Positions 17,517 through 24,901 of a DNA stretch of 64,000 nt are shown here, in pieces. Under the pieces are notes generated by a model. The model saw only the letters and a list, made by a program, of their open reading frames with translations, did no database searches and was not told the origin of the DNA. Positions within the stretch are counted from its first letter, which is position 1. Every line of letters starts with the position of its first letter. Position numbers and translations under genes: made by a program. This DNA comes from Acinetobacter sp. (GTDB lineage Bacteria; Pseudomonadota; Gammaproteobacteria; Pseudomonadales; Moraxellaceae). Location of the stretch: positions 9,312-73,311 of the forward strand of contig NZ_JAZQPV010000117.1 in NCBI RefSeq assembly GCF_045628685.1. The letters are read 5' to 3'.

Positions 17517-17610
17517 GAATAGCCTAAGCATTTTTATAAGCCCAAAAACTGTATACGATTGGATGAATAGCCTAAGCTAAATAAATTATCCTGAATAAAA
17601 TAGCCTAAGC
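17517..17610. repeat. Three direct copies of (G/A)AATAGCCTAAGC
   Basis: Copies at 17517-17529, 17565-17577 and 17598-17610; the last overlaps the LysR stop codon. Confidence 0.85.
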
Positions 17611-18534
17611 AAAAATTTTAGAAATTTCGCTTCGCAAAAAACTATGACGTAAATTTAATTGCAAATCCTTATGCCAATACATCCCCAAATCAATATTCGG
17701 CAGTTCCACAGGAACATCAAAAATATTCAGATCTTGTGCCAGTTGTAAATGAACCAATATATTTCTAGGAATGGTGAGAATGGCTTGAGGCTGCTGAGTT
17801 AAAATTTGCAGGGCGGTTGAATAATGCTGACAACGTAAAAAAATCTGACGAGAAAACTGCTTTCGGTTCAAGTAAATATCTTCAACCAAAACTCCGGTAC
17901 GTCGTGATGAAACACCAATATGTGGCGAGGCCAGATAAATATCTTTGGTCATGCTCTGCTGTTGAGTACACACTACAAACTGGTCTTGCACCAGTTTTTC
18001 AAATTGAATTTTTTCCCCAAAGTTTTGTTCTAGATCAATCACAAAATCAATTTGCTGAGTGGCAAGATCGCTAACGATATTTTTACGGTCTAGCTTAATA
18101 CTGGAAAATTGAATCGTTAAATTAAGTTGATGAAAATGTTCCACCAGTTTAGGAAAGATAATCGGTTCAATTTCATCATGCACTGCAATTTTTAAGCTCT
18201 GTACCATGCTTGGGTCAAAATTTTGTTTTTGGATTGAAATAGCTTGAATTGCAATCAAGGCATTTTTAATTTCAGGATAAATTTGCTCAGCGAAGGGCGT
18301 GGGAAGCATTTTGCTGCCTGTACGGACAAATAAATCATCCTGCAAATGTTGTCTTAAACGTTGTAGGGCATGACTGGCTGCGGATTGGCTAATACATAAA
18401 ATTTGCGCAGCTTTTGAAATACTTCTTTGCTCATAAATCGCAATACAAAGTGGATATAAATTAATATCGATACGGTGGAAAATTGCCAGATCAACGCTAC
18501 TACCTATCGGACTTTTATTATGAATACTGTTCAT
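17605..18534 (-). CDS. LysR family transcriptional regulator
   Basis: 309 aa, HTH (SISKAAQILCISQSAASHALQRLR); divergent from the acyl-CoA dehydrogenase operon. Confidence 0.85.
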   Translation of the reverse strand: MNSIHNKSPIGSSVDLAIFHRIDINLYPLCIAIYEQRSISKAAQILCISQSAASHALQRLRQHLQDDLFVRTGSKMLPTPFAEQIYPEIKNALIAIQAISIQKQNFDPSMVQSLKIAVHDEIEPIIFPKLVEHFHQLNLTIQFSSIKLDRKNIVSDLATQQIDFVIDLEQNFGEKIQFEKLVQDQFVVCTQQQSMTKDIYLASPHIGVSSRRTGVLVEDIYLNRKQFSRQIFLRCQHYSTALQILTQQPQAILTIPRNILVHLQLAQDLNIFDVPVELPNIDLGMYWHKDLQLNLRHSFLRSEISKIFA

Positions 18535-18628
18535 AGTGTTGTATTGAATTAAATCATTTTGTTCATAGTAGTTTTCAAGCTAAGGTGTTGTAAAGAGCAG
18601 TAATGACAATATTGAGAGGGAAGTTGCC

Positions 18629-19867
18629 ATGTTTGAATTATCAACACGTGCACAAGATTTTGTAGAACGAACCAAAACCTTTATAAAAAATGAAATTGAA
18701 CCGATTGAAACACAGTTTTGGAATGATGTTCATGCGCTGAATCAAGGGGGTGACTGGACAACATGGCAATGGCCAGCACAAATTGAAGTGCTTAAAGGTA
18801 AAGCCAAAGCAGCAGGGCTTTGGAACATGTTCCTACCTGATCCTGTATTAGGACAAGGGCTTTCGGTGCAGGAATATGCACATATTGCCGAACTGACAGG
18901 GCGCAGTCTAATTGCACCCACTTTATTCAACTGTAATGCACCTGACAGCGGCAACATGGAAGTATTATGGCGTTATGGTTCTGATGCGCAAAAACAACAG
19001 TGGTTAAGTCCTTTACTCGCAGGCAAAATCCGTTCTGTATTTTGTATGACTGAACCAGATGTGGCTTCTAGTGATGCAACCAATATGCAGGCGACGGCGG
19101 TCATTGACGGTGATGAAATTGTCTTGAATGGGCGTAAATGGTGGTCGTCTGGTTTAGGCGATCCTAATGCAAAAATCATTATTTTTATGGCACACACGCC
19201 AGATGAAAATAAAGACCGTCACCATCAACACTCCATGGTTTTAGTACCCATTGATACGGTAGGCGTGAAAATTGAACGAATGTTACCGGTGTTTGGTGAT
19301 TACGATGCACCGCATGGTCACGGCGAAATCAGTTTTAATAATGTCCGTGTTCCAGTTGCCAATTTTATTGGTGGTGCGGGGCAAGGTTTCGAAATTGCTC
19401 AAGGTCGTTTGGGGCCGGGACGTATTCATCACTGCATGCGTTGTATTGGGGCAGCAGAAAAATCGTTAGAGTTGATGATTGACCGTGGTATGAGCCGAAC
19501 TGCATTTGGTAAAGAAATTTTAAAACTGGGTGGTAACCTGGAACGTGTTGCCGAAGCACGGGTTGGCATAGATCAAGCCCGCCTTTTAACTTTGTATGCT
19601 GCCTATAAAATGGATACTTTAGGCAATATGGCGGCTTTGACTGAAATTTCTGCGATTAAATTGGTTGCGCCCAGGGTACTGGAAAAAGTGGTTGATATGG
19701 CAATCCAGATTCACGGCGGTGCAGGAGTTTCACGAGATACGCCATTAACGGGTTTCTTTGCCCAAGCGCGTAGCCTTCGTTTGGCCGATGGTCCCGATGA
19801 AGTGCATAAAGGCATAATTGCCAAACTTGAACTGGCAAAACGTGGTTACGGTTCACGTCGTAAATAA
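18629..19867 (+). CDS. Acyl-CoA dehydrogenase, FadE2/ACAD10-ACAD11-like subfamily
   Basis: 412 aa with GLWNMFLP, MTEPDVASSDATN and QGRLGPGRIHHCMR segments that I associate with this subfamily. Confidence 0.8.
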   Translation: MFELSTRAQDFVERTKTFIKNEIEPIETQFWNDVHALNQGGDWTTWQWPAQIEVLKGKAKAAGLWNMFLPDPVLGQGLSVQEYAHIAELTGRSLIAPTLFNCNAPDSGNMEVLWRYGSDAQKQQWLSPLLAGKIRSVFCMTEPDVASSDATNMQATAVIDGDEIVLNGRKWWSSGLGDPNAKIIIFMAHTPDENKDRHHQHSMVLVPIDTVGVKIERMLPVFGDYDAPHGHGEISFNNVRVPVANFIGGAGQGFEIAQGRLGPGRIHHCMRCIGAAEKSLELMIDRGMSRTAFGKEILKLGGNLERVAEARVGIDQARLLTLYAAYKMDTLGNMAALTEISAIKLVAPRVLEKVVDMAIQIHGGAGVSRDTPLTGFFAQARSLRLADGPDEVHKGIIAKLELAKRGYGSRRK

Positions 19868-19998
19868 GATTTAAAATATAGCGTAGATTAGAGTTCTTAC
19901 AACTTTATGCAAATTTTCCTATCAATGGAAAATGAAAAAGGTATAAATGAGTAGAGTAAGAAGTCTGTTTAAATTATTGATGATTTAGGGAAATAATC

Positions 19999-21126
19999 AT
20001 GTCGGTGATTGATGTCAGTGGAAATGTCCGTGAAGGTGAAGAACTGGACGTTGTCGCGGTAGAAAATTGGCTTAAACAACAAGGTATTGATCTGCAAGGG
20101 CAAGTCGCTGTCACCCAATATTCAGGTGGGGCATCTAACTGGACTTACCGTTTGAAATATGACAACGCCGATTTAATTTTGCGTCGTCCACCTAAAGGTA
20201 CCAAAGCCAAATCTGCCCATGACATGGCACGTGAATACAATGTGCAAAAAAATCTGGCACCGTTCTATCCTGTCTTGCCTGAAATGGTGGCACTGTGTCA
20301 GGATGAATCGATCATTGGCTGTGATTTTTATGTGATGCAGCGGATTGAGGGTATTATTCCTCGTGCCAATTTGCCCAAAGAACTGCATTTTAATGAAGTC
20401 CAAGTTCACGAACTGTGTATCAATGTTATTGATAAACTGATTGAGTTACATCAAGTACCTTATCAAGGGACAGAGCTGGAGAAACTGGGGAAAGGAGACG
20501 GATACTGTCGTCGTCAGGTGGAGGGTTGGGATGCACGGTATGAAAGAGCCAAAACCTTAAATGTACCTTCATTTAAATATGTACGTAACTGGCTCAAAGA
20601 CAATATTCCTGCTGATTCGACCATCTGTATCATTCATAACGACTGGCGTTTTGATAATCTAATTTTAGATCCGCATAACCCAACTCAAGTCATTGGTGTG
20701 CTGGACTGGGAAATGGCAACCTTGGGCGATCCGCTGATGGATTTGGGTTCGGCTTTGGCATACTGGGTTGAAGAGACGGATCCCCAGATTTTTAAAGCGA
20801 CACGTCGTCAGCCCACCCATTTAAAGGGCATGTTTAGCCGTAAAGAAGTGGTCGATTACTATTTAGAAAAAACGGGTTTGCAACCTGAAAACTGGACCTT
20901 TTATGAAGTGTTTGGCATTTTCCGTCTAGCCGTGATCGCCCAGCAAATTTATTACCGTTATCACCATAAACAAACCAATAATCCTGCATTTAAGGATTTT
21001 TGGATCGTGATTCATGCCTTACATATTCGTGCATTAAAATTGATTGGTGAACAAAAGCTCGAGGCCAATGACATTGCACAAAAATATAAAGCAAAATTTC
21101 AGGAAATTTTAGGAAAAGTAAAATGA
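19999..21126 (+). CDS. Phosphotransferase (APH/choline-kinase fold) family protein
   Basis: 375 aa; catalytic loop IHNDWRFDNLIL and VLDWEMATLGDP motif intact. Confidence 0.85.
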   Translation: MSVIDVSGNVREGEELDVVAVENWLKQQGIDLQGQVAVTQYSGGASNWTYRLKYDNADLILRRPPKGTKAKSAHDMAREYNVQKNLAPFYPVLPEMVALCQDESIIGCDFYVMQRIEGIIPRANLPKELHFNEVQVHELCINVIDKLIELHQVPYQGTELEKLGKGDGYCRRQVEGWDARYERAKTLNVPSFKYVRNWLKDNIPADSTICIIHNDWRFDNLILDPHNPTQVIGVLDWEMATLGDPLMDLGSALAYWVEETDPQIFKATRRQPTHLKGMFSRKEVVDYYLEKTGLQPENWTFYEVFGIFRLAVIAQQIYYRYHHKQTNNPAFKDFWIVIHALHIRALKLIGEQKLEANDIAQKYKAKFQEILGKVK

Positions 21127-21821
21127 CTACGATTTATCTGATTCGTCACGGACAGGCGTCTTTTGGGGCAGAAAGTTATGACAAGCTTTCACCGAATGGG
21201 GAATTACAGGCAAAATTGTTGGGTCAGTATTTCAACCAAATTTTGAAAGAAGAACCTTATGTTATTGCAGGTTCGATGCAGCGCCATCAACAAACAGCCA
21301 ATCTGGCTTTGGCTGAATGCTTTCCAGAAGCTGAGATTCGGATCGACAGCGCATGGAATGAATTCAACCATCAACAGGTTTTTGCCCATTATGAACCGCG
21401 CTTTAATGAGCCACATTTGCTAAAACAGGATGTCGAAAATGAAGCCAATCCACGTGCATATTTAGCCAAAATTTTTGAAGGTGCCATTGAACGCTGGACG
21501 GATGGCAACTATCACCATGAATATGACGAATCTTGGCCAAATTTTAAAAATCGTGTAGAAACAGCCCTACAAAATTTAAGTGATGAACTGGCAAAAACCA
21601 AATCTCGTTATGCTGTGGTGTTCACCTCGGGTGGTGTAATTTCAGTGGCTGCAGGAAAATTGCTTGAATTAAATGTGAATCGTACTTTTGCATTGAACTG
21701 GGCGATTACCAATACCAGTATCACCACATTACGTTTGGTTGGAAATGAACCGCAATTACTGAGTTTAAATGAACATCATTTTATTAAAGCTGTAGATCCT
21801 CAATTACTCACATGGATTTAA
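21123..21821 (+). CDS. Histidine phosphatase (phosphoglycerate mutase-like) family protein
   Basis: N-terminal LIRHGQASF (RHG motif); ATGA overlap with the kinase gene. Confidence 0.8.
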   Translation: MTTIYLIRHGQASFGAESYDKLSPNGELQAKLLGQYFNQILKEEPYVIAGSMQRHQQTANLALAECFPEAEIRIDSAWNEFNHQQVFAHYEPRFNEPHLLKQDVENEANPRAYLAKIFEGAIERWTDGNYHHEYDESWPNFKNRVETALQNLSDELAKTKSRYAVVFTSGGVISVAAGKLLELNVNRTFALNWAITNTSITTLRLVGNEPQLLSLNEHHFIKAVDPQLLTWI

Positions 21822-21848
21822 TATTAGAAAAAAGGGAGGGCATAGATC

Positions 21849-22592
21849 ATGGCAAGAACGATATTAATTACTGGGGCAAGTTCGGGAATTGGGGCAGGCA
21901 TGGCACGTGAATTCGCACAAAAGGGCTATAACCTTGCGATTTGCGCACGTCGTCTGGAACGCCTTGAGATCTTAAAACAAGAACTGGAAAGCAAATATGG
22001 CATTAAGGTGATTGCAAAAACTTTGGACGTCACCAATTACGATCAAGTTTTTGAGGTATTTAAAGCATTTCAGGCGGAATTTGGCATGATTGACCGTGTG
22101 ATCGTAAATGCAGGGGTTGGAGAGGGCCGTCGTATTGGTAAGGGGAATTTTGCAGTTAACCGTACTACGGTAGAAACAAACTTTATTTCTGCTTTAGCGC
22201 AATGTGAAGCCGCGGTTGAAATTTTCCGTGCGCAAAATTCAGGTCATCTGGTCATGATTTCATCCATGAGTGCAATGCGCGGTATGCCAAAACATTTAAC
22301 TGCATATGCAGCAAGTAAAGCAGCAGTTGCACATTTGGCTGAAGGTATTCGTGCCGAACTGATTAATACCCCCATTAAAATCAGCACCATTTTCCCAGGC
22401 TATATCCGCACTGAACTGAATGAAGGTGCGAAAAAACTGCCTTTTGAAGTGGATGAAAAAACTGGTTCACATTTACTTGCCCAAGTGATTGAGAAAGAGC
22501 CAGTAAAAGCATATGTACCCCAATGGCCATGGTTACCCTTGGGCTTGGCGATGAAAGTATTGCCTTTAAAGTGGCTAAATAAGCTAAGTTAA
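21849..22592 (+). CDS. SDR family oxidoreductase
   Basis: TGASSGIGAGMA cofactor motif and YAASKAA catalytic motif. Confidence 0.9.
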   Translation: MARTILITGASSGIGAGMAREFAQKGYNLAICARRLERLEILKQELESKYGIKVIAKTLDVTNYDQVFEVFKAFQAEFGMIDRVIVNAGVGEGRRIGKGNFAVNRTTVETNFISALAQCEAAVEIFRAQNSGHLVMISSMSAMRGMPKHLTAYAASKAAVAHLAEGIRAELINTPIKISTIFPGYIRTELNEGAKKLPFEVDEKTGSHLLAQVIEKEPVKAYVPQWPWLPLGLAMKVLPLKWLNKLS

Positions 22593-22620
22593 CCGTTAAA
22601 TACTCAATTTAATAAAATAA

Positions 22621-22650
22621 GGGCTCAGTAATGAGCTTTTATTGTTTTGA
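22621..22650 (+). terminator. Probable intrinsic terminator
   Basis: Short stem gggctca/tgagctt (includes G-U pairs) followed by a T-rich tract. Confidence 0.45.
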
Positions 22651-22789
22651 TTTTTGAATAATATTTTAAAAAATTATAATAATAAAAAATAATAGATGTA
22701 CAAAGTGCTGATTTATATTGAGCAAATATGAAAAAATTTAAAAAACAGTTTTAAAATCGCTAATAGGGAAGCGATTCACTGTTATTTAA

Positions 22790-23101
22790 TTAACTGTTAT
22801 TTTTAGAAATCAGAATACCTAACATGATAATAAAGGTGCTCACTCCACCTATGACAAAACTCATGAGTCCCATTTCCATAGTCAATATTTCATTCCAAAG
22901 ATTATTTTTGCTCCAAGGAATGTAAACGCCCTGTCTCCATAAAAAGCTAATAGCACATAAAATAAGAAAGCTGATAATTGTTGAAATAATAAGCGTAACA
23001 AAAAGATTTTTCCAGATTTTACAGCCGACAATTAAGGTAATAATGCTAAGGCCAACGATTGCAATTATTGATATGAATAAAACACTATTCCAATAGTCCA
23101 T
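22790..23101 (-). CDS. Hypothetical small membrane protein
   Basis: 103 aa with three hydrophobic segments, isolated in an AT-rich non-coding stretch. Confidence 0.5.
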   Translation of the reverse strand: MDYWNSVLFISIIAIVGLSIITLIVGCKIWKNLFVTLIISTIISFLILCAISFLWRQGVYIPWSKNNLWNEILTMEMGLMSFVIGGVSTFIIMLGILISKNNS

Positions 23102-23566
23102 TTCGATTACTCTTGGCTAAGTCAATAATAAAATTATGCAAGTATGGTATTTAAATTCTATGGATTACTTTAATATGAATCGCGTATATAAAGTAGGCAT
23201 TTTATTCCAGGAAATATTGTTATTTGACTTTTTTATAAATAAATTCTTATTAACTTACTGAAAAGCGGTTTTTTTTAATCTACTCAGATAAAACTGATTT
23301 CTTAAAAAAATTGAAAGAAGATATGTACTGGATAAACCTTCTGCTTTATCTGTCTAAGCACCTGGGAACGGTTATTGTTATTCTGCCAGGACCTGAAAAT
23401 AGCTTGAATGGGAGATTTTCCCTGCACCAATAAATAAAATATCCAAAATTTTAGCAATGTTCAGCAATGGGTATAACAATATGCCCATTCAATTAATGAT
23501 TTTATCAAGCTAAAATCGTATATTAATCAGGATGCTTTTCGCTCTTTGCTTATTTATGACGTATTT

Positions 23567-24277
23567 ATGTTTTTAAAAATTTCAACCATCGCCCTTATTC
23601 CCTCCCTGATTATTCAAGGCAATGCAGTCAAAAAAAATACCTTACGCTTGCCAGAACCAGAAGGAAACCGTCAGGGAACGGCCGGAAAAGGAAAAGTACT
23701 GTCTATTTTAATTTTAGGCGATTCGGCAGCAGCAGGTGTGGGAGTCGGAATTCAAGAAGATGCTTTATTGGGCGCTGTGTTGAGCCAGTTGAAAGATCAA
23801 TACCAAATCAGTTATATGCTGGAAGCAAAAACAGGATATGCCACTGGACAATTAATTAAAACCACCAAAAGGATGTCGGCTCGACATTTTGATGTGGTTA
23901 TTACCTCGGTAGGGGTAAATGACATTACCAAACTGACCCCACCTAAAAACTGGATTAAAAAACAACAGCAACTTTATGCAGAAATTAATCAGAAATTCAC
24001 ACCTGAATTGATTATTGCTTCTGGTGTGCCGCCTATGAATATGTTTCCCGCTTTACCTAATCCATTAGCATGGTTATTTGGGCAATATGCCAAAGCCATG
24101 AATGAAGTGCTTGATAAATTTGTTCAAGGACAAATTAACATGCAATGGATTGAGTACGATCTAGAACAATTTAAAGTTCTTAATTTAGAAATGGCAGAAG
24201 ATGGTTTTCATCCCAGCAAGGAAATTTATACACTTTGGGGACAACAAATGGCAGATAAAATCCGTCAAATGTTCTAA
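23567..24277 (+). CDS. SGNH/GDSL hydrolase family protein
   Basis: ILILGDSAAAGVG block I (GDS), GVND block, DGFHP block V; first ATG at 23567. Confidence 0.8.
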   Translation: MFLKISTIALIPSLIIQGNAVKKNTLRLPEPEGNRQGTAGKGKVLSILILGDSAAAGVGVGIQEDALLGAVLSQLKDQYQISYMLEAKTGYATGQLIKTTKRMSARHFDVVITSVGVNDITKLTPPKNWIKKQQQLYAEINQKFTPELIIASGVPPMNMFPALPNPLAWLFGQYAKAMNEVLDKFVQGQINMQWIEYDLEQFKVLNLEMAEDGFHPSKEIYTLWGQQMADKIRQMF

Positions 24278-24307
24278 ATTAAGCTAAAAGCTGATCAATG
24301 GGCTGTT

Positions 24308-24901
24308 ATGACCACCGAACTGGAAATTGAAACTCATCCACTTAAACCCTTTTTACCAGAAAATGCCAAATTGCTCATGATGGGCAGTTTCCCACCCCCT
24401 AAAAGCCGTTGGAAAATGGAGTTTTACTATCCAAACTATCAAAATGATATGTGGAAGATTTTTGGTTTAGTCTTTTTTAAAGATAAAGAATACTTTTTAG
24501 ATATCGCCAACAAGAATTTCAGGGAACAACTAATCCGGGATTTTTTAACTGAAAAAGGTATCGCGATTTTTGATACGGCGTATCAAATCGTTCGCTTAAA
24601 AGGCAATGCTTCGGATAAGTTCCTGCAAATTTCCAAACCAACTGATTTAGCCAAGCTGCTACAACAGATTCCAGAATGTCACAGCATTATGACCACAGGT
24701 GATAAAGCGACAGATACACTCATGCTTTCTATGCCAGAACATACTAAAAAACCGCAAATTGGACAGCCTTCAAAAGTACATTTTGCTGAACGTGACCTCA
24801 CTTTATATCGCATGCCTTCATCTTCAAGAGCTTATCCTTTAGCGGTGGAAAAGAAAGCTGAAGCATATGCTCAGTTATTTAAAGAAATAGGCTTACTATG
24901 A
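24308..24901 (+). CDS. Uracil-DNA glycosylase superfamily protein, specificity unknown
   Basis: LLMMGSFPPPKS...FYYPNYQNDMWKIFG N-terminal motif resembles the UDG-like/deoxyinosine glycosylase clade. Assigned by recollection only. Confidence 0.55.
   Translation: MTTELEIETHPLKPFLPENAKLLMMGSFPPPKSRWKMEFYYPNYQNDMWKIFGLVFFKDKEYFLDIANKNFREQLIRDFLTEKGIAIFDTAYQIVRLKGNASDKFLQISKPTDLAKLLQQIPECHSIMTTGDKATDTLMLSMPEHTKKPQIGQPSKVHFAERDLTLYRMPSSSRAYPLAVEKKAEAYAQLFKEIGLL

What the first reader, a model, noticed from the sequence alone, without database searches (positions are those of the whole stretch)
18629..22592. Split ACAD10/11-like module: FadE2-type acyl-CoA dehydrogenase, APH-fold kinase, histidine phosphatase and SDR under a divergent LysR
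Seen in sequence: four co-directional genes are tightly packed. The kinase and phosphatase genes overlap by ATGA at 21123-21126, and only 27 nt separate the phosphatase and SDR genes. The dehydrogenase carries the GLWNMFLP and QGRLGPGRIHHCMR segments that I associate with the FadE2/ACAD10/ACAD11 subfamily. The kinase keeps its catalytic HNDWRFDN and DWE motifs. Established knowledge: mammalian ACAD10 and ACAD11 fuse exactly these two domains and degrade 4-hydroxyacyl-CoAs through a 4-phosphoacyl-CoA intermediate. The Pseudomonas putida lva (levulinate) operon combines a kinase (LvaA/B), an acyl-CoA dehydrogenase family enzyme (LvaC) and an SDR (LvaD) for the same chemistry. Inference: this operon catabolises 4-oxo or 4-hydroxy acids or lactones. 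The histidine phosphatase has no lva counterpart. As I recall, ACAD10 carries a HAD-type hydrolase domain, which may be a parallel. The phosphatase could proofread or reset the phosphorylated intermediate, a role not described for bacterial systems as far as I know.
Basis: partly seen in the sequence, partly recalled or inferred. Interest (0 to 1): 0.6.

Follow-up and report, generated by a model that had tools for sequence, protein, structure and literature searches.

The report
Acinetobacter 4-hydroxyacyl-CoA kinase/lyase operon with phosphatase
This is the unfused bacterial form of the mammalian ACAD10/ACAD11 enzyme pair, which most likely lets 4-hydroxy fatty acids enter normal fat breakdown; the pathway is already known, it is a near-core gene cluster of Acinetobacter, and the one open point is a conserved, atypical phosphatase whose job nobody has tested.

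Summary
On the + strand lie an acyl-CoA dehydrogenase (ACAD, 18629-19867), an APH-fold kinase (19999-21126), a histidine phosphatase (21123-21821, ATGA overlap with the kinase) and an SDR (21849-22592). A LysR gene faces them, and a terminator-like hairpin follows.

The ACAD scores 443 bits to mouse ACAD11 against at most 133 bits to ordinary ACADs. It keeps the phosphate-binding Arg/His/Arg residues and the catalytic Asp. The kinase keeps the catalytic motifs and both CoA-binding arginines. [quoted passage not shown]

A histidine phosphatase next to an lvaA homologue was already noted in Pseudomonas citronellolis (PMC6692424), and this scan has met the module in at least 24 other genomes.

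- The kinase is present in 104 of 120 Acinetobacter species sampled.
- In an order-level sample, 53 of 62 kinase-bearing genomes have the phosphatase, 49 of them within about 1 kb.
- One kinase::phosphatase fusion exists.
- The whole phosphatase family has Ser where the second core His (HGG) should be.

Verdict: an ordinary new member of a known pathway. The phosphatase's role remains open.

The parts
17605..18534 (-). Divergent LysR-family regulator (309 aa)
   Evidence: Pfam HTH_1 and LysR_substrate. No specific NCBIfam equivalog reaches its cut-off. At my tblastn threshold, a LysR gene appears beside the ACAD or the phosphatase in about 45 of 80 related loci, divergent in nearly all, including Shewanella, Marinobacter and Pyxidicoccus; a Pseudomonas locus shows the same.
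18543..18595 (.). Conserved blocks in the 94-nt LysR-ACAD intergenic region (18543-18570, ATTGAATTAAATCATTTTGTTCATAGTA, and 18584-18595, GGTGTTGTAAAG): candidate operator and promoter
   Evidence: An alignment of 11 Acinetobacter intergenic regions shows near-invariant columns here while the flanks vary. The function is inferred, not shown.
18629..19867 (+). ACAD10/11-LvaC-type acyl-CoA dehydrogenase-fold enzyme (412 aa), the predicted 4-phosphoacyl-CoA phosphate-eliminating enzyme
   Evidence: It scores 443 bits to mouse ACAD11 (8v3u) and 541 bits to 4hr3, against at most 133 bits to conventional ACADs. R260, R265, H268, R271 and D387 align with ACAD11 R626, R631, H634, R637 and D753, which are needed for 4-phosphoacyl-CoA turnover. 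It is the only such copy in the genome; seven other ACAD paralogues are at most 34% identical.
19999..21126 (+). APH-fold kinase (375 aa), the predicted 4-hydroxyacyl-CoA 4-kinase
   Evidence: Pfam APH. It scores 260 bits to 9o56, 178 bits to the ACAD11 kinase domain and 158 bits to 3dxp. The H213-N-D215...N220 and D236-W-E motifs are present. R78 and R172 align with ACAD11 R86 and R176, which are modelled to hold the CoA moiety. It is single-copy in this genome.
21123..21821 (+). Atypical histidine-phosphatase-fold protein (232 aa), translationally coupled to the kinase; role unknown
   Evidence: Pfam His_Phos_1. The AF2 model has pLDDT 96.8. The nearest folds are small-molecule histidine phosphatases at TM 0.6-0.7 and at most 22% identity. 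R8, H9, R54 and E80 are conserved, but S169 (FTSGG) aligns with the second core His of the HGG motif, and this holds in all 63 representatives and 16 further homologues.
21849..22592 (+). Classical SDR (247 aa, NCBIfam PRK08251), predicted 4-oxoacyl-CoA / 4-hydroxyacyl-CoA oxidoreductase
   Evidence: adh_short E 1e-43. PRK08251 scores 411 bits against a cut-off of 253, but the model names no function. TGASSGIG and YAASK are present. Orthologues at 54-69% identity follow the phosphatase in Shewanella, Paraglaciecola, Paraburkholderia, Pyxidicoccus and Psychrobacter. The substrate is inferred by analogy with LvaD.
22616..22643 (+). Terminator-like hairpin that closes the transcription unit
   Evidence: A 12-pair stem followed by a T-run lies 24 nt after the SDR stop. 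The only other + strand match inside the four genes is a 5-pair hairpin within the phosphatase ORF (21622-21634), and none lies in the ACAD-kinase gap. This is a consensus match only.

Best explanation
A LysR-controlled, four-gene auxiliary beta-oxidation module. Fatty acids that carry a hydroxyl (or, after SDR reduction, a keto) group at C4 stall ordinary beta-oxidation as 4-hydroxyacyl-CoA. The kinase phosphorylates the 4-OH using ATP. The ACAD-fold enzyme then eliminates phosphate in a redox-neutral, FAD-dependent reaction and yields 2-enoyl-CoA, which re-enters beta-oxidation. The SDR most likely interconverts 4-oxoacyl-CoA and 4-hydroxyacyl-CoA, as LvaD does. The phosphatase is a conserved third partner of the kinase. 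Most likely it hydrolyses a phosphorylated off-pathway species, such as a free 4-phospho acid or a wrong-isomer 4-phosphoacyl-CoA, or it tunes the kinase. Shown here: gene order, family membership, conserved catalytic residues, co-conservation. Inferred: every substrate, the SDR step and the phosphatase role.
For: The ACAD is far closer to ACAD11 than to any ordinary ACAD, and it keeps the R/H/R phosphate site and the catalytic Asp. The kinase keeps the catalytic residues and the CoA-binding arginines. Mammalian ACAD10/11, P. putida LvaA/LvaC and Burkholderia pseudomallei stand-alone orthologues all carry out this chemistry in vitro (PMC11342911; PMC12440821). The cluster is conserved with a divergent LysR across Gammaproteobacteria (including Burkholderiales), Alphaproteobacteria and Myxococcota. 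No + strand terminator-like site lies in the intergenic gaps, and a hairpin follows the last gene. The kinase and phosphatase are linked in several ways: the ATGA overlap; presence of the phosphatase in 53 of 62 kinase-positive Pseudomonadales genomes, 49 of them within about 1 kb on the same strand; all 7 kinase orthologues in a class-wide sample come with it; and one kinase::phosphatase fusion sits in the same operon context.
Against: No experiment exists for any Acinetobacter member. The cluster has no acyl-CoA ligase, transporter, hydratase or thioesterase, so the physiological substrate is open. A 2026 preprint reports that ACAD10-type kinases, including prokaryotic homologues, phosphorylate 1-O-alkylglycerols (PMC13596139). 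A phosphatase that simply reversed the kinase would make a futile cycle. The phosphatase lacks the second core His, so it may be a poor enzyme or not a hydrolase at all. P0004 is only 32-36% identical to the SDRs of lva-like clusters, so orthology to LvaD is not shown.
Confidence: 0.65

Rival explanations
1. The phosphatase-fold protein is not a hydrolase in this pathway. It is instead an accessory or regulatory subunit of the kinase, playing the part that the small protein LvaB plays for LvaA in P. putida and that the HAD domain plays in ACAD10, where it restrains the kinase.
For: In P. citronellolis it occupies the slot between the lvaA and lvaC homologues and lvaB is absent. The ATGA overlap suggests translational coupling. 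A kinase::phosphatase fusion exists. The second core His is replaced by Ser in the whole family. In ACAD10 the HAD domain showed negligible phosphatase activity on 4-phosphoacyl-CoA but lowered kinase output (PMC11342911).
Against: R8, the nucleophile H9, R54 and E80 are invariant or nearly so across 63 representatives clustered at 50% identity, which is unusual for a pure scaffold. In fluorescens-type Pseudomonas genomes the phosphatase, kinase and ACAD genes are unlinked.
Confidence: 0.2
2. The kinase and phosphatase act on glycerolipids (alkyl- or acylglycerol kinase plus a lysophosphatidate-type phosphatase), mirroring the ether-lipid activities reported for the kinase and HAD domains of ACAD10. 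The ACAD then serves another purpose.
For: The preprint PMC13596139 reports that ACAD10 and several prokaryotic kinase homologues phosphorylate chimyl alcohol, with stimulation by acetyl-CoA, and that the HAD domain is a lipid phosphatase. The window kinase scores best to 9o56. That 355-residue chain is deposited as 'aminoglycoside phosphotransferase'; I take it to be the Caldalkalibacillus thermarum kinase of that preprint, but I could not confirm this.
Against: The kinase is almost always linked to an ACAD that keeps the 4-phosphoacyl-CoA binding residues, and to SDRs. The CoA-contacting arginines are conserved. The preprint's authors state that the relation between the two activities is unclear. 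Acinetobacter is not known to make ether lipids (my own knowledge, not tested here).
Confidence: 0.1
3. A dedicated nutrient operon for levulinate, 4-hydroxyvalerate or gamma-lactones, equivalent to lvaABCDE.
For: The enzyme kinds (kinase, ACAD, SDR) match LvaA, LvaC and LvaD. The levulinate cluster of P. citronellolis also contains a histidine phosphatase.
Against: The cluster has no LvaE-type CoA ligase, no LvaF/G transporter, no lvaB, and a LysR instead of the sigma-54 LvaR. The kinase is only about 30-35% identical to the second, more distant kinase tier in the class sample, which in several genomes sits beside an ACAD10-type ACAD and a phosphatase homologue, whereas it is 43-69% identical to the tier that always carries the phosphatase. 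The cluster is present in 104 of 120 Acinetobacter species sampled and its ACAD in 117 of 121 Pseudomonas genomes. That pattern fits housekeeping lipid catabolism better than a niche substrate.
Confidence: 0.12
4. An ordinary fatty-acyl-CoA dehydrogenase that merely sits beside unrelated genes.
For: Pfam and NCBIfam give only generic ACAD hits, all below the equivalog cut-offs.
Against: There is a 310-bit gap between the ACAD11 match and the best conventional ACAD. Asp replaces the catalytic Glu, and the R/H/R site is present. Linkage to the kinase is conserved across phyla. ACAD10/11 showed no activity on unsubstituted acyl-CoAs.
Confidence: 0.03

Closest known systems
Mammalian ACAD11 and ACAD10 (PDB 8v3u, 8v3v, 2wbi; PMC12440821, PMC11342911)
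   Same: Both catalytic domains are homologous: the ACAD scores 443 bits and the kinase 178 bits to mouse ACAD11. The kinase residues (D215, N220, DWE, R78, R172) and the ACAD residues (R260, R265, H268, R271, D387) are identical. ACAD10 also carries a phosphatase-fold module beside its kinase.
   Different: Here the domains are separate genes, in the order ACAD then kinase. The accompanying phosphatase has the histidine-phosphatase fold, not the HAD fold, so it is an analogue and not a homologue. An SDR and a LysR regulator belong to the unit.
Burkholderia pseudomallei stand-alone LvaA and LvaC orthologues tested by Paquay et al. 2024 (PMC11342911)
   Same: These are unfused bacterial proteins, reported closer to ACAD10 than P. 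putida LvaA/LvaC are, and shown to replace the ACAD10 domains in vitro. A Paraburkholderia locus (L043) has the same ACAD-kinase-phosphatase-SDR layout as the window, with 61, 58, 37 and 63% identity.
   Different: I could not retrieve the tested sequences, so orthology to the L043-type cluster is inferred. That paper does not discuss the neighbouring phosphatase in the parts I read.
Pseudomonas putida KT2440 lvaABCDE, and the P. citronellolis LA18T levulinate cluster (Rand et al. 2017 as cited; PMC6692424)
   Same: Both use a kinase, an ACAD-fold eliminating enzyme and an SDR, with a 4-phosphoacyl-CoA intermediate. The LA18T cluster has a histidine phosphatase gene directly after the lvaA homologue, as here.
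   Different: The window has no lvaB, no lvaE ligase, no lvaFG transport genes and no sigma-54 LvaR. Its gene order differs. Its kinase belongs to the ACAD10-like tier rather than to the more distant kinase tier (about 30-35% identity) that I take to include LvaA.
Histidine phosphatase superfamily branch 1: PspA phosphoserine phosphatase 4ij5, CobC 6e4b, PGAM5 3mxo, and the 9mmh phosphatase of riboflavin synthesis
   Same: The fold is the same (Foldseek probability 1.0, TM 0.6-0.7). The RHG nucleophile motif, the second Arg and the Glu are conserved.
   Different: Identity is at most 22%. The core His of the HGG motif is Ser (SGG) throughout this family. A helical insert of about 75 residues (83-159) is present. 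No member of the family has been characterised.

Membership tests
ACAD10/ACAD11/LvaC-type phosphate-eliminating ACAD | Three-domain ACAD fold | tested here: met
   Pfam Acyl-CoA_dh_N, _M and _1 are all above their cut-offs.
ACAD10/ACAD11/LvaC-type phosphate-eliminating ACAD | Closer to ACAD10/11 than to any conventional ACAD | tested here: met
   443 bits to mouse ACAD11 and 433 bits to human ACAD11, against at most 133 bits to the next ACAD in the PDB. The own-genome paralogues are at most 34% identical. No tree with LvaC was built.
ACAD10/ACAD11/LvaC-type phosphate-eliminating ACAD | Arg/His/Arg phosphate-binding helix (ACAD11 R626, H634, R637) and catalytic Asp (D753) | tested here: met
   R260, H268, R271 and D387 align residue for residue. 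Their roles are taken from PMC12440821.
ACAD10/ACAD11/LvaC-type phosphate-eliminating ACAD | [quoted passage not shown] | not testable with these tools
   This needs an enzyme assay.
ACAD10/ACAD11/LvaA-type 4-hydroxyacyl-CoA kinase | APH/protein-kinase-like fold with the catalytic HxD...N loop and the DWE metal-binding motif | tested here: met
   Pfam APH E 2e-47. H213-N-D215...N220 and D236-W-E238 are present and invariant in 30 orthologues.
ACAD10/ACAD11/LvaA-type 4-hydroxyacyl-CoA kinase | Arginines that hold the CoA moiety (ACAD11 R86 and R176) | tested here: met
   R78 and R172 align with them and are invariant in alignment A2. Their role comes from MD modelling in PMC12440821.
ACAD10/ACAD11/LvaA-type 4-hydroxyacyl-CoA kinase | Genetic linkage or fusion to the ACAD10/11-type ACAD | tested here: met
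   The two genes are 131 nt apart here. They are linked in most of the 80 related loci.
P. putida lva operon | LvaB partner of the kinase, LvaE CoA ligase and the sigma-54 regulator LvaR | tested here: not met
   There is no small ORF between the kinase and the next gene, no ligase within 4 kb on either side, and the regulator is a LysR. The LvaB sequence itself was not available for a search.
Histidine phosphatase superfamily, branch 1 | RHG motif with the nucleophilic His, plus the second core Arg and the acid/base Glu | tested here: met
   R8-H9-G10, R54 and E80 are conserved in 63 representatives. The profile aligns the N-terminal part to PGAM5, dPGM and others.
Histidine phosphatase superfamily, branch 1 | Second core His (HGG/HxN motif, e.g. 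dPGM H184, PGAM5 H230) | tested here: not met
   S169 in FTSGG aligns with the His of GHGG in 9mmh and of CHAN in PGAM5. SGG is found in every homologue examined. The protein therefore has the fold but a variant active site. Whether another residue substitutes in space could not be checked, because no model coordinates are given.
LvaD-type 4-oxoacyl-CoA reductase | Classical SDR with a Tyr-Lys catalytic pair, linked to the kinase and ACAD | tested here: inconclusive
   The SDR motifs and the linkage are present. Identity to the SDRs of lva-like clusters is only 32-36%, and LvaD itself was not available.

The most novel reading that the evidence does not exclude
The SGG-variant histidine-phosphatase-fold protein is an obligatory, dedicated third component of bacterial 4-hydroxyacyl-CoA catabolism. 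It would be a non-homologous functional analogue of the HAD domain of ACAD10 and of LvaB. It would either repair dead-end phospho-metabolites (free 4-phospho acids or wrong-isomer 4-phosphoacyl-CoA) or gate the kinase, using a catalytic site that works without the second core histidine.
Probability: 0.35. Interest if true: 0.6.

Novelty: new member of a known kind. Interest (0 to 1): 0.35.

Why it matters
The kinase plus ACAD route for 4-hydroxy acids was worked out only in 2017-2025, and its bacterial distribution is barely described. This window shows that a well-studied genus, Acinetobacter, carries the pathway as a near-core, LysR-controlled operon. That makes the genus a convenient genetic system for two open questions. 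First, which natural substrates feed the route: lipid-peroxidation products, mid-chain hydroxy fatty acids or lactones? Second, what does the phosphatase do? It accompanies the kinase in most bacteria sampled, and ACAD10 independently carries a phosphatase-fold module beside the same kinase, which suggests a general need that current pathway schemes leave out. None of this is surprising enough to rank highly. The pathway itself is known, the phosphatase association has been noted in print, and this scan has seen it repeatedly.

Tried and rejected
1. Complex prediction on kinase (A2) plus phosphatase (A1) gave no verdict (score 0.00 in both runs, controls not run). It counts neither for nor against binding.

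2. phmmer of the phosphatase alone against the PDB found nothing. Only the family profile reached structures.

3. I tried to find a true lvaABCDE operon so that LvaB could be compared with the phosphatase. The second ACAD copies in 8 Pseudomonas genomes (47-52% identity) mostly had no kinase beside them, and no lvaB-sized gene was found. The Rand et al. 2017 paper is not held. The idea that LvaB is a remnant of the phosphatase is therefore untested.

4. Among kinases of the low-identity tier in phosphatase-negative genomes, most are not next to an ACAD10-type gene and are probably other APH kinases. I therefore dropped the attempt to test whether a HAD phosphatase replaces the histidine phosphatase there.

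5. A1S_1662, a 'histidine phosphatase' down-regulated by mucin in A. baumannii, lies in a cobamide context and is probably CobC, not this gene.

6. The 'fadE2' hit in PMC12704764 was fadE25 and is irrelevant.

7. My crude ORF clustering failed on high-GC loci because of antisense shadow ORFs. I replaced it with tblastn mapping.

8. The apparent 640-aa phosphatase ORF in P. fluorescens (L100) has no Pfam domain in its N-terminal part and is probably an over-extended TTG start.

Full report
**What is there**

The window comes from an Acinetobacter close to A. terrae and A. terrestris. Four tightly packed + strand ORFs lie at 18629-22592, opposite a LysR gene. Pfam assigns them to the acyl-CoA dehydrogenase (ACAD), APH kinase, histidine phosphatase branch 1 and classical SDR families. 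NCBIfam gives no specific equivalog for any of them, apart from the uninformative SDR model PRK08251, which scores 411 bits against a cut-off of 253.

So are the ATGA overlap at 21123-21126 and the 27-nt spacer with its strong Shine-Dalgarno sequence. No + strand terminator-like site lies in the intergenic gaps, and a 12-pair hairpin with a T-run follows the SDR stop. The LysR-ACAD spacer contains blocks that are nearly invariant across 11 Acinetobacter species. These are probably the operator and promoter.

**The dehydrogenase and the kinase**

Against all PDB sequences the ACAD scores as follows:
- 541 bits to 4hr3
- 443, 441 and 433 bits to mouse and human ACAD11
- at most 133 bits to any conventional ACAD

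In the alignment to ACAD11, R260, R265, H268, R271 and D387 match R626, R631, H634, R637 and D753. Rashan et al. showed that these residues bind the 4-phospho group and catalyse elimination (PMC12440821).

The kinase scores 260 bits to 9o56, 178 bits to the ACAD11 kinase domain and 158 bits to 3dxp. It keeps the catalytic Asp and Asn, the DWE motif and the two arginines (R78, R172) that are modelled to hold the CoA moiety. All of these are invariant in 30 orthologues. Each gene is single-copy in this genome.

The chemistry is experimentally established in three systems:
- ACAD10/11 (PMC11342911, PMC12440821)
- P. putida LvaA/LvaC (as cited in those papers)
- stand-alone Burkholderia pseudomallei orthologues, which can replace the ACAD10 domains

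**Conservation**

The kinase is found in 104 of 120 sampled Acinetobacter species, so the cluster is near-core in the genus.

I fetched 80 named loci through the phosphatase. About 60 of them carry an ACAD10-type ACAD, the kinase or both next to it, usually with a divergent LysR. The taxa include:
- Shewanella, Marinobacter, Paraglaciecola, Zhongshania, Psychrobacter, Dyella and Rhodanobacter
- Paraburkholderia, Noviherbaspirillum and Duganella
- Azospirillum and Beijerinckiaceae
- the myxobacterium Pyxidicoccus

Many of these loci have a second SDR between the ACAD and the kinase. Acinetobacter lacks it and has a 60-400 nt spacer there instead.

Gene order varies between lineages while membership stays the same. 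That pattern argues for functional coupling rather than inherited synteny.

**The phosphatase**

This is the only part that current pathway schemes do not explain.

It is tied to the kinase in several ways:
- In a class-wide sample of 300 Gammaproteobacteria, 14 other genomes have the phosphatase. In 12 of them it lies within 1.5 kb of the kinase or the ACAD.
- All 7 genomes whose kinase is at least 43% identical to the window's also have the phosphatase.
- In an order-level sample of 250 genomes at least 90% complete, 62 other genomes have the kinase at E 1e-80 or better. Of these, 53 have the phosphatase: 49 within about 1 kb on the same strand and 4 unlinked (positions compared by hand).
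- In fluorescens-type Pseudomonas the ACAD, kinase and phosphatase all persist but sit at three separate loci. This is co-occurrence without linkage.
- One 597-aa kinase::phosphatase fusion exists in a LysR | ACAD-SDR-fusion-SDR context. It rests on a single metagenomic contig. Its junction is exactly where the two genes overlap here, so an assembly frameshift cannot be excluded.

Its active site is atypical. The family keeps R8, H9, R54 and E80. The residue that aligns with the second core histidine (GHGG in 9mmh, CHAN in PGAM5) is Ser169 in FTSGG. It is SGG in all 63 representatives clustered at 50% identity and in 16 further homologues, including those of the more distant kinase tier. No other histidine is conserved enough to be an obvious substitute: H55 is often Gln and H83 varies.

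The AF2 model is very confident, with pLDDT 96.8. Its nearest structures are small-molecule phosphatases (PspA, CobC, the 9mmh riboflavin-pathway phosphatase, RosC) and PGAM5, at TM 0.6-0.7 and at most 22% identity. A helical insert of about 75 residues (83-159) probably forms the substrate cap.

**Prior knowledge on the phosphatase**

Habe et al. 2019 (PMC6692424) described a 218-aa histidine phosphatase gene in the levulinate cluster of P. citronellolis LA18T. It lies between the lvaA homologue (59% identity to LvaA) and the lvaC homologue (78%), and lvaB is absent. They suggested it may remove phosphate from 4-phosphovaleryl-CoA and called for functional analysis. The association is therefore not new, but the function is still untested.

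For ACAD10, Paquay et al. found negligible phosphatase activity of the HAD domain on 4-phosphoacyl-CoA, together with a restraining effect on the kinase. Ye et al. (preprint PMC13596139) report lipid kinase and lipid phosphatase activities, and say that the relation to 4-hydroxy acid catabolism is unclear.

This scan has already recorded the same module, with the same unexplained phosphatase, in at least 24 other genomes. One of those records has the same LysR | ACAD-kinase-phosphatase-SDR layout.

**Most likely mechanism**

The module is an auxiliary beta-oxidation unit under LysR control:
1. The SDR interconverts 4-oxoacyl-CoA and 4-hydroxyacyl-CoA.
2. The kinase makes 4-phosphoacyl-CoA.
3. 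The ACAD eliminates phosphate and yields 2-enoyl-CoA.

I favour an auxiliary role over a dedicated levulinate operon for three reasons. The cluster has no CoA ligase or transporter. Its regulator is a LysR rather than the sigma-54 LvaR. It is near-core in Acinetobacter, and its ACAD is present in 117 of 121 Pseudomonas genomes.

For the phosphatase I rank the options as follows:
- (a) Hydrolysis of an off-pathway phospho-species. Free 4-phospho acids were seen in cells by Paquay et al.. A wrong stereoisomer is another candidate.
- (b) A kinase-modulating partner, analogous to LvaB or the HAD domain.
- (c) A lipid phosphate phosphatase.

None of these has been tested. The one structural test available here, complex prediction, gave no verdict.

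**Verdict**

It needs correcting on the supposed absence of any bacterial precedent for the phosphatase. This is an ordinary, widely distributed member of a known pathway, and its one interesting feature, the SGG-variant phosphatase, has been noticed before.

Noticed in passing
window 22593-23545: A very AT-rich spacer (GC about 0.30) lies after the operon. It contains a 103-aa minus-strand ORF (22790-23101) with no Pfam or NCBIfam match.
   Followed up: no
L147:6001-7794 (protein P0274): A 597-aa kinase::histidine-phosphatase fusion, 57% and 37% identical to the window proteins, sits in a LysR | ACAD-SDR-fusion-SDR operon on a single Logan contig. The phosphatase Met directly follows the kinase end, so this is either a true stop-loss fusion or an assembly frameshift.
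   Followed up: partly
L035:8001-8696 (Acinetobacter courvalinii): A phosphatase copy 65% identical to the window's has no ACAD, kinase, SDR or LysR within 8 kb. This is a relocated or paralogous copy. Two Acinetobacter genomes (G447, G490) also carry a second kinase copy at 67-68% identity, one of them with internal stops.
   Followed up: no
L045:6083-6934, L066:6074-6895: Shewanella, Marinobacter and many other taxa have an extra SDR gene between the ACAD and the kinase. Acinetobacter lacks it and has only a 131-nt spacer at that position. Two SDRs could serve stereo-inversion of 4-hydroxyacyl-CoA through the 4-oxo form; this is speculation.
   Followed up: partly
L145, L100 and G301:C10:50436-51491 (Pseudomonas fluorescens LY3): In fluorescens-type Pseudomonas genomes the ACAD (with its LysR), the kinase and the phosphatase are all present but at three separate loci. 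The phosphatase lies beside a sulfite/nitrite reductase gene and another LysR.
   Followed up: partly
window 23546-24901: A GDSL lipase/acylhydrolase gene and a UDG-superfamily (hypoxanthine-DNA-glycosylase-like) gene follow downstream. The pair recurs only in close Acinetobacter relatives and is not part of the conserved module.
   Followed up: no
G550:C18:712-1752: The kinase match lies in an open frame of 592 aa, with the phosphatase match starting 30 nt after it. This may be a second fusion or an extended upstream frame. I did not examine it.
   Followed up: no
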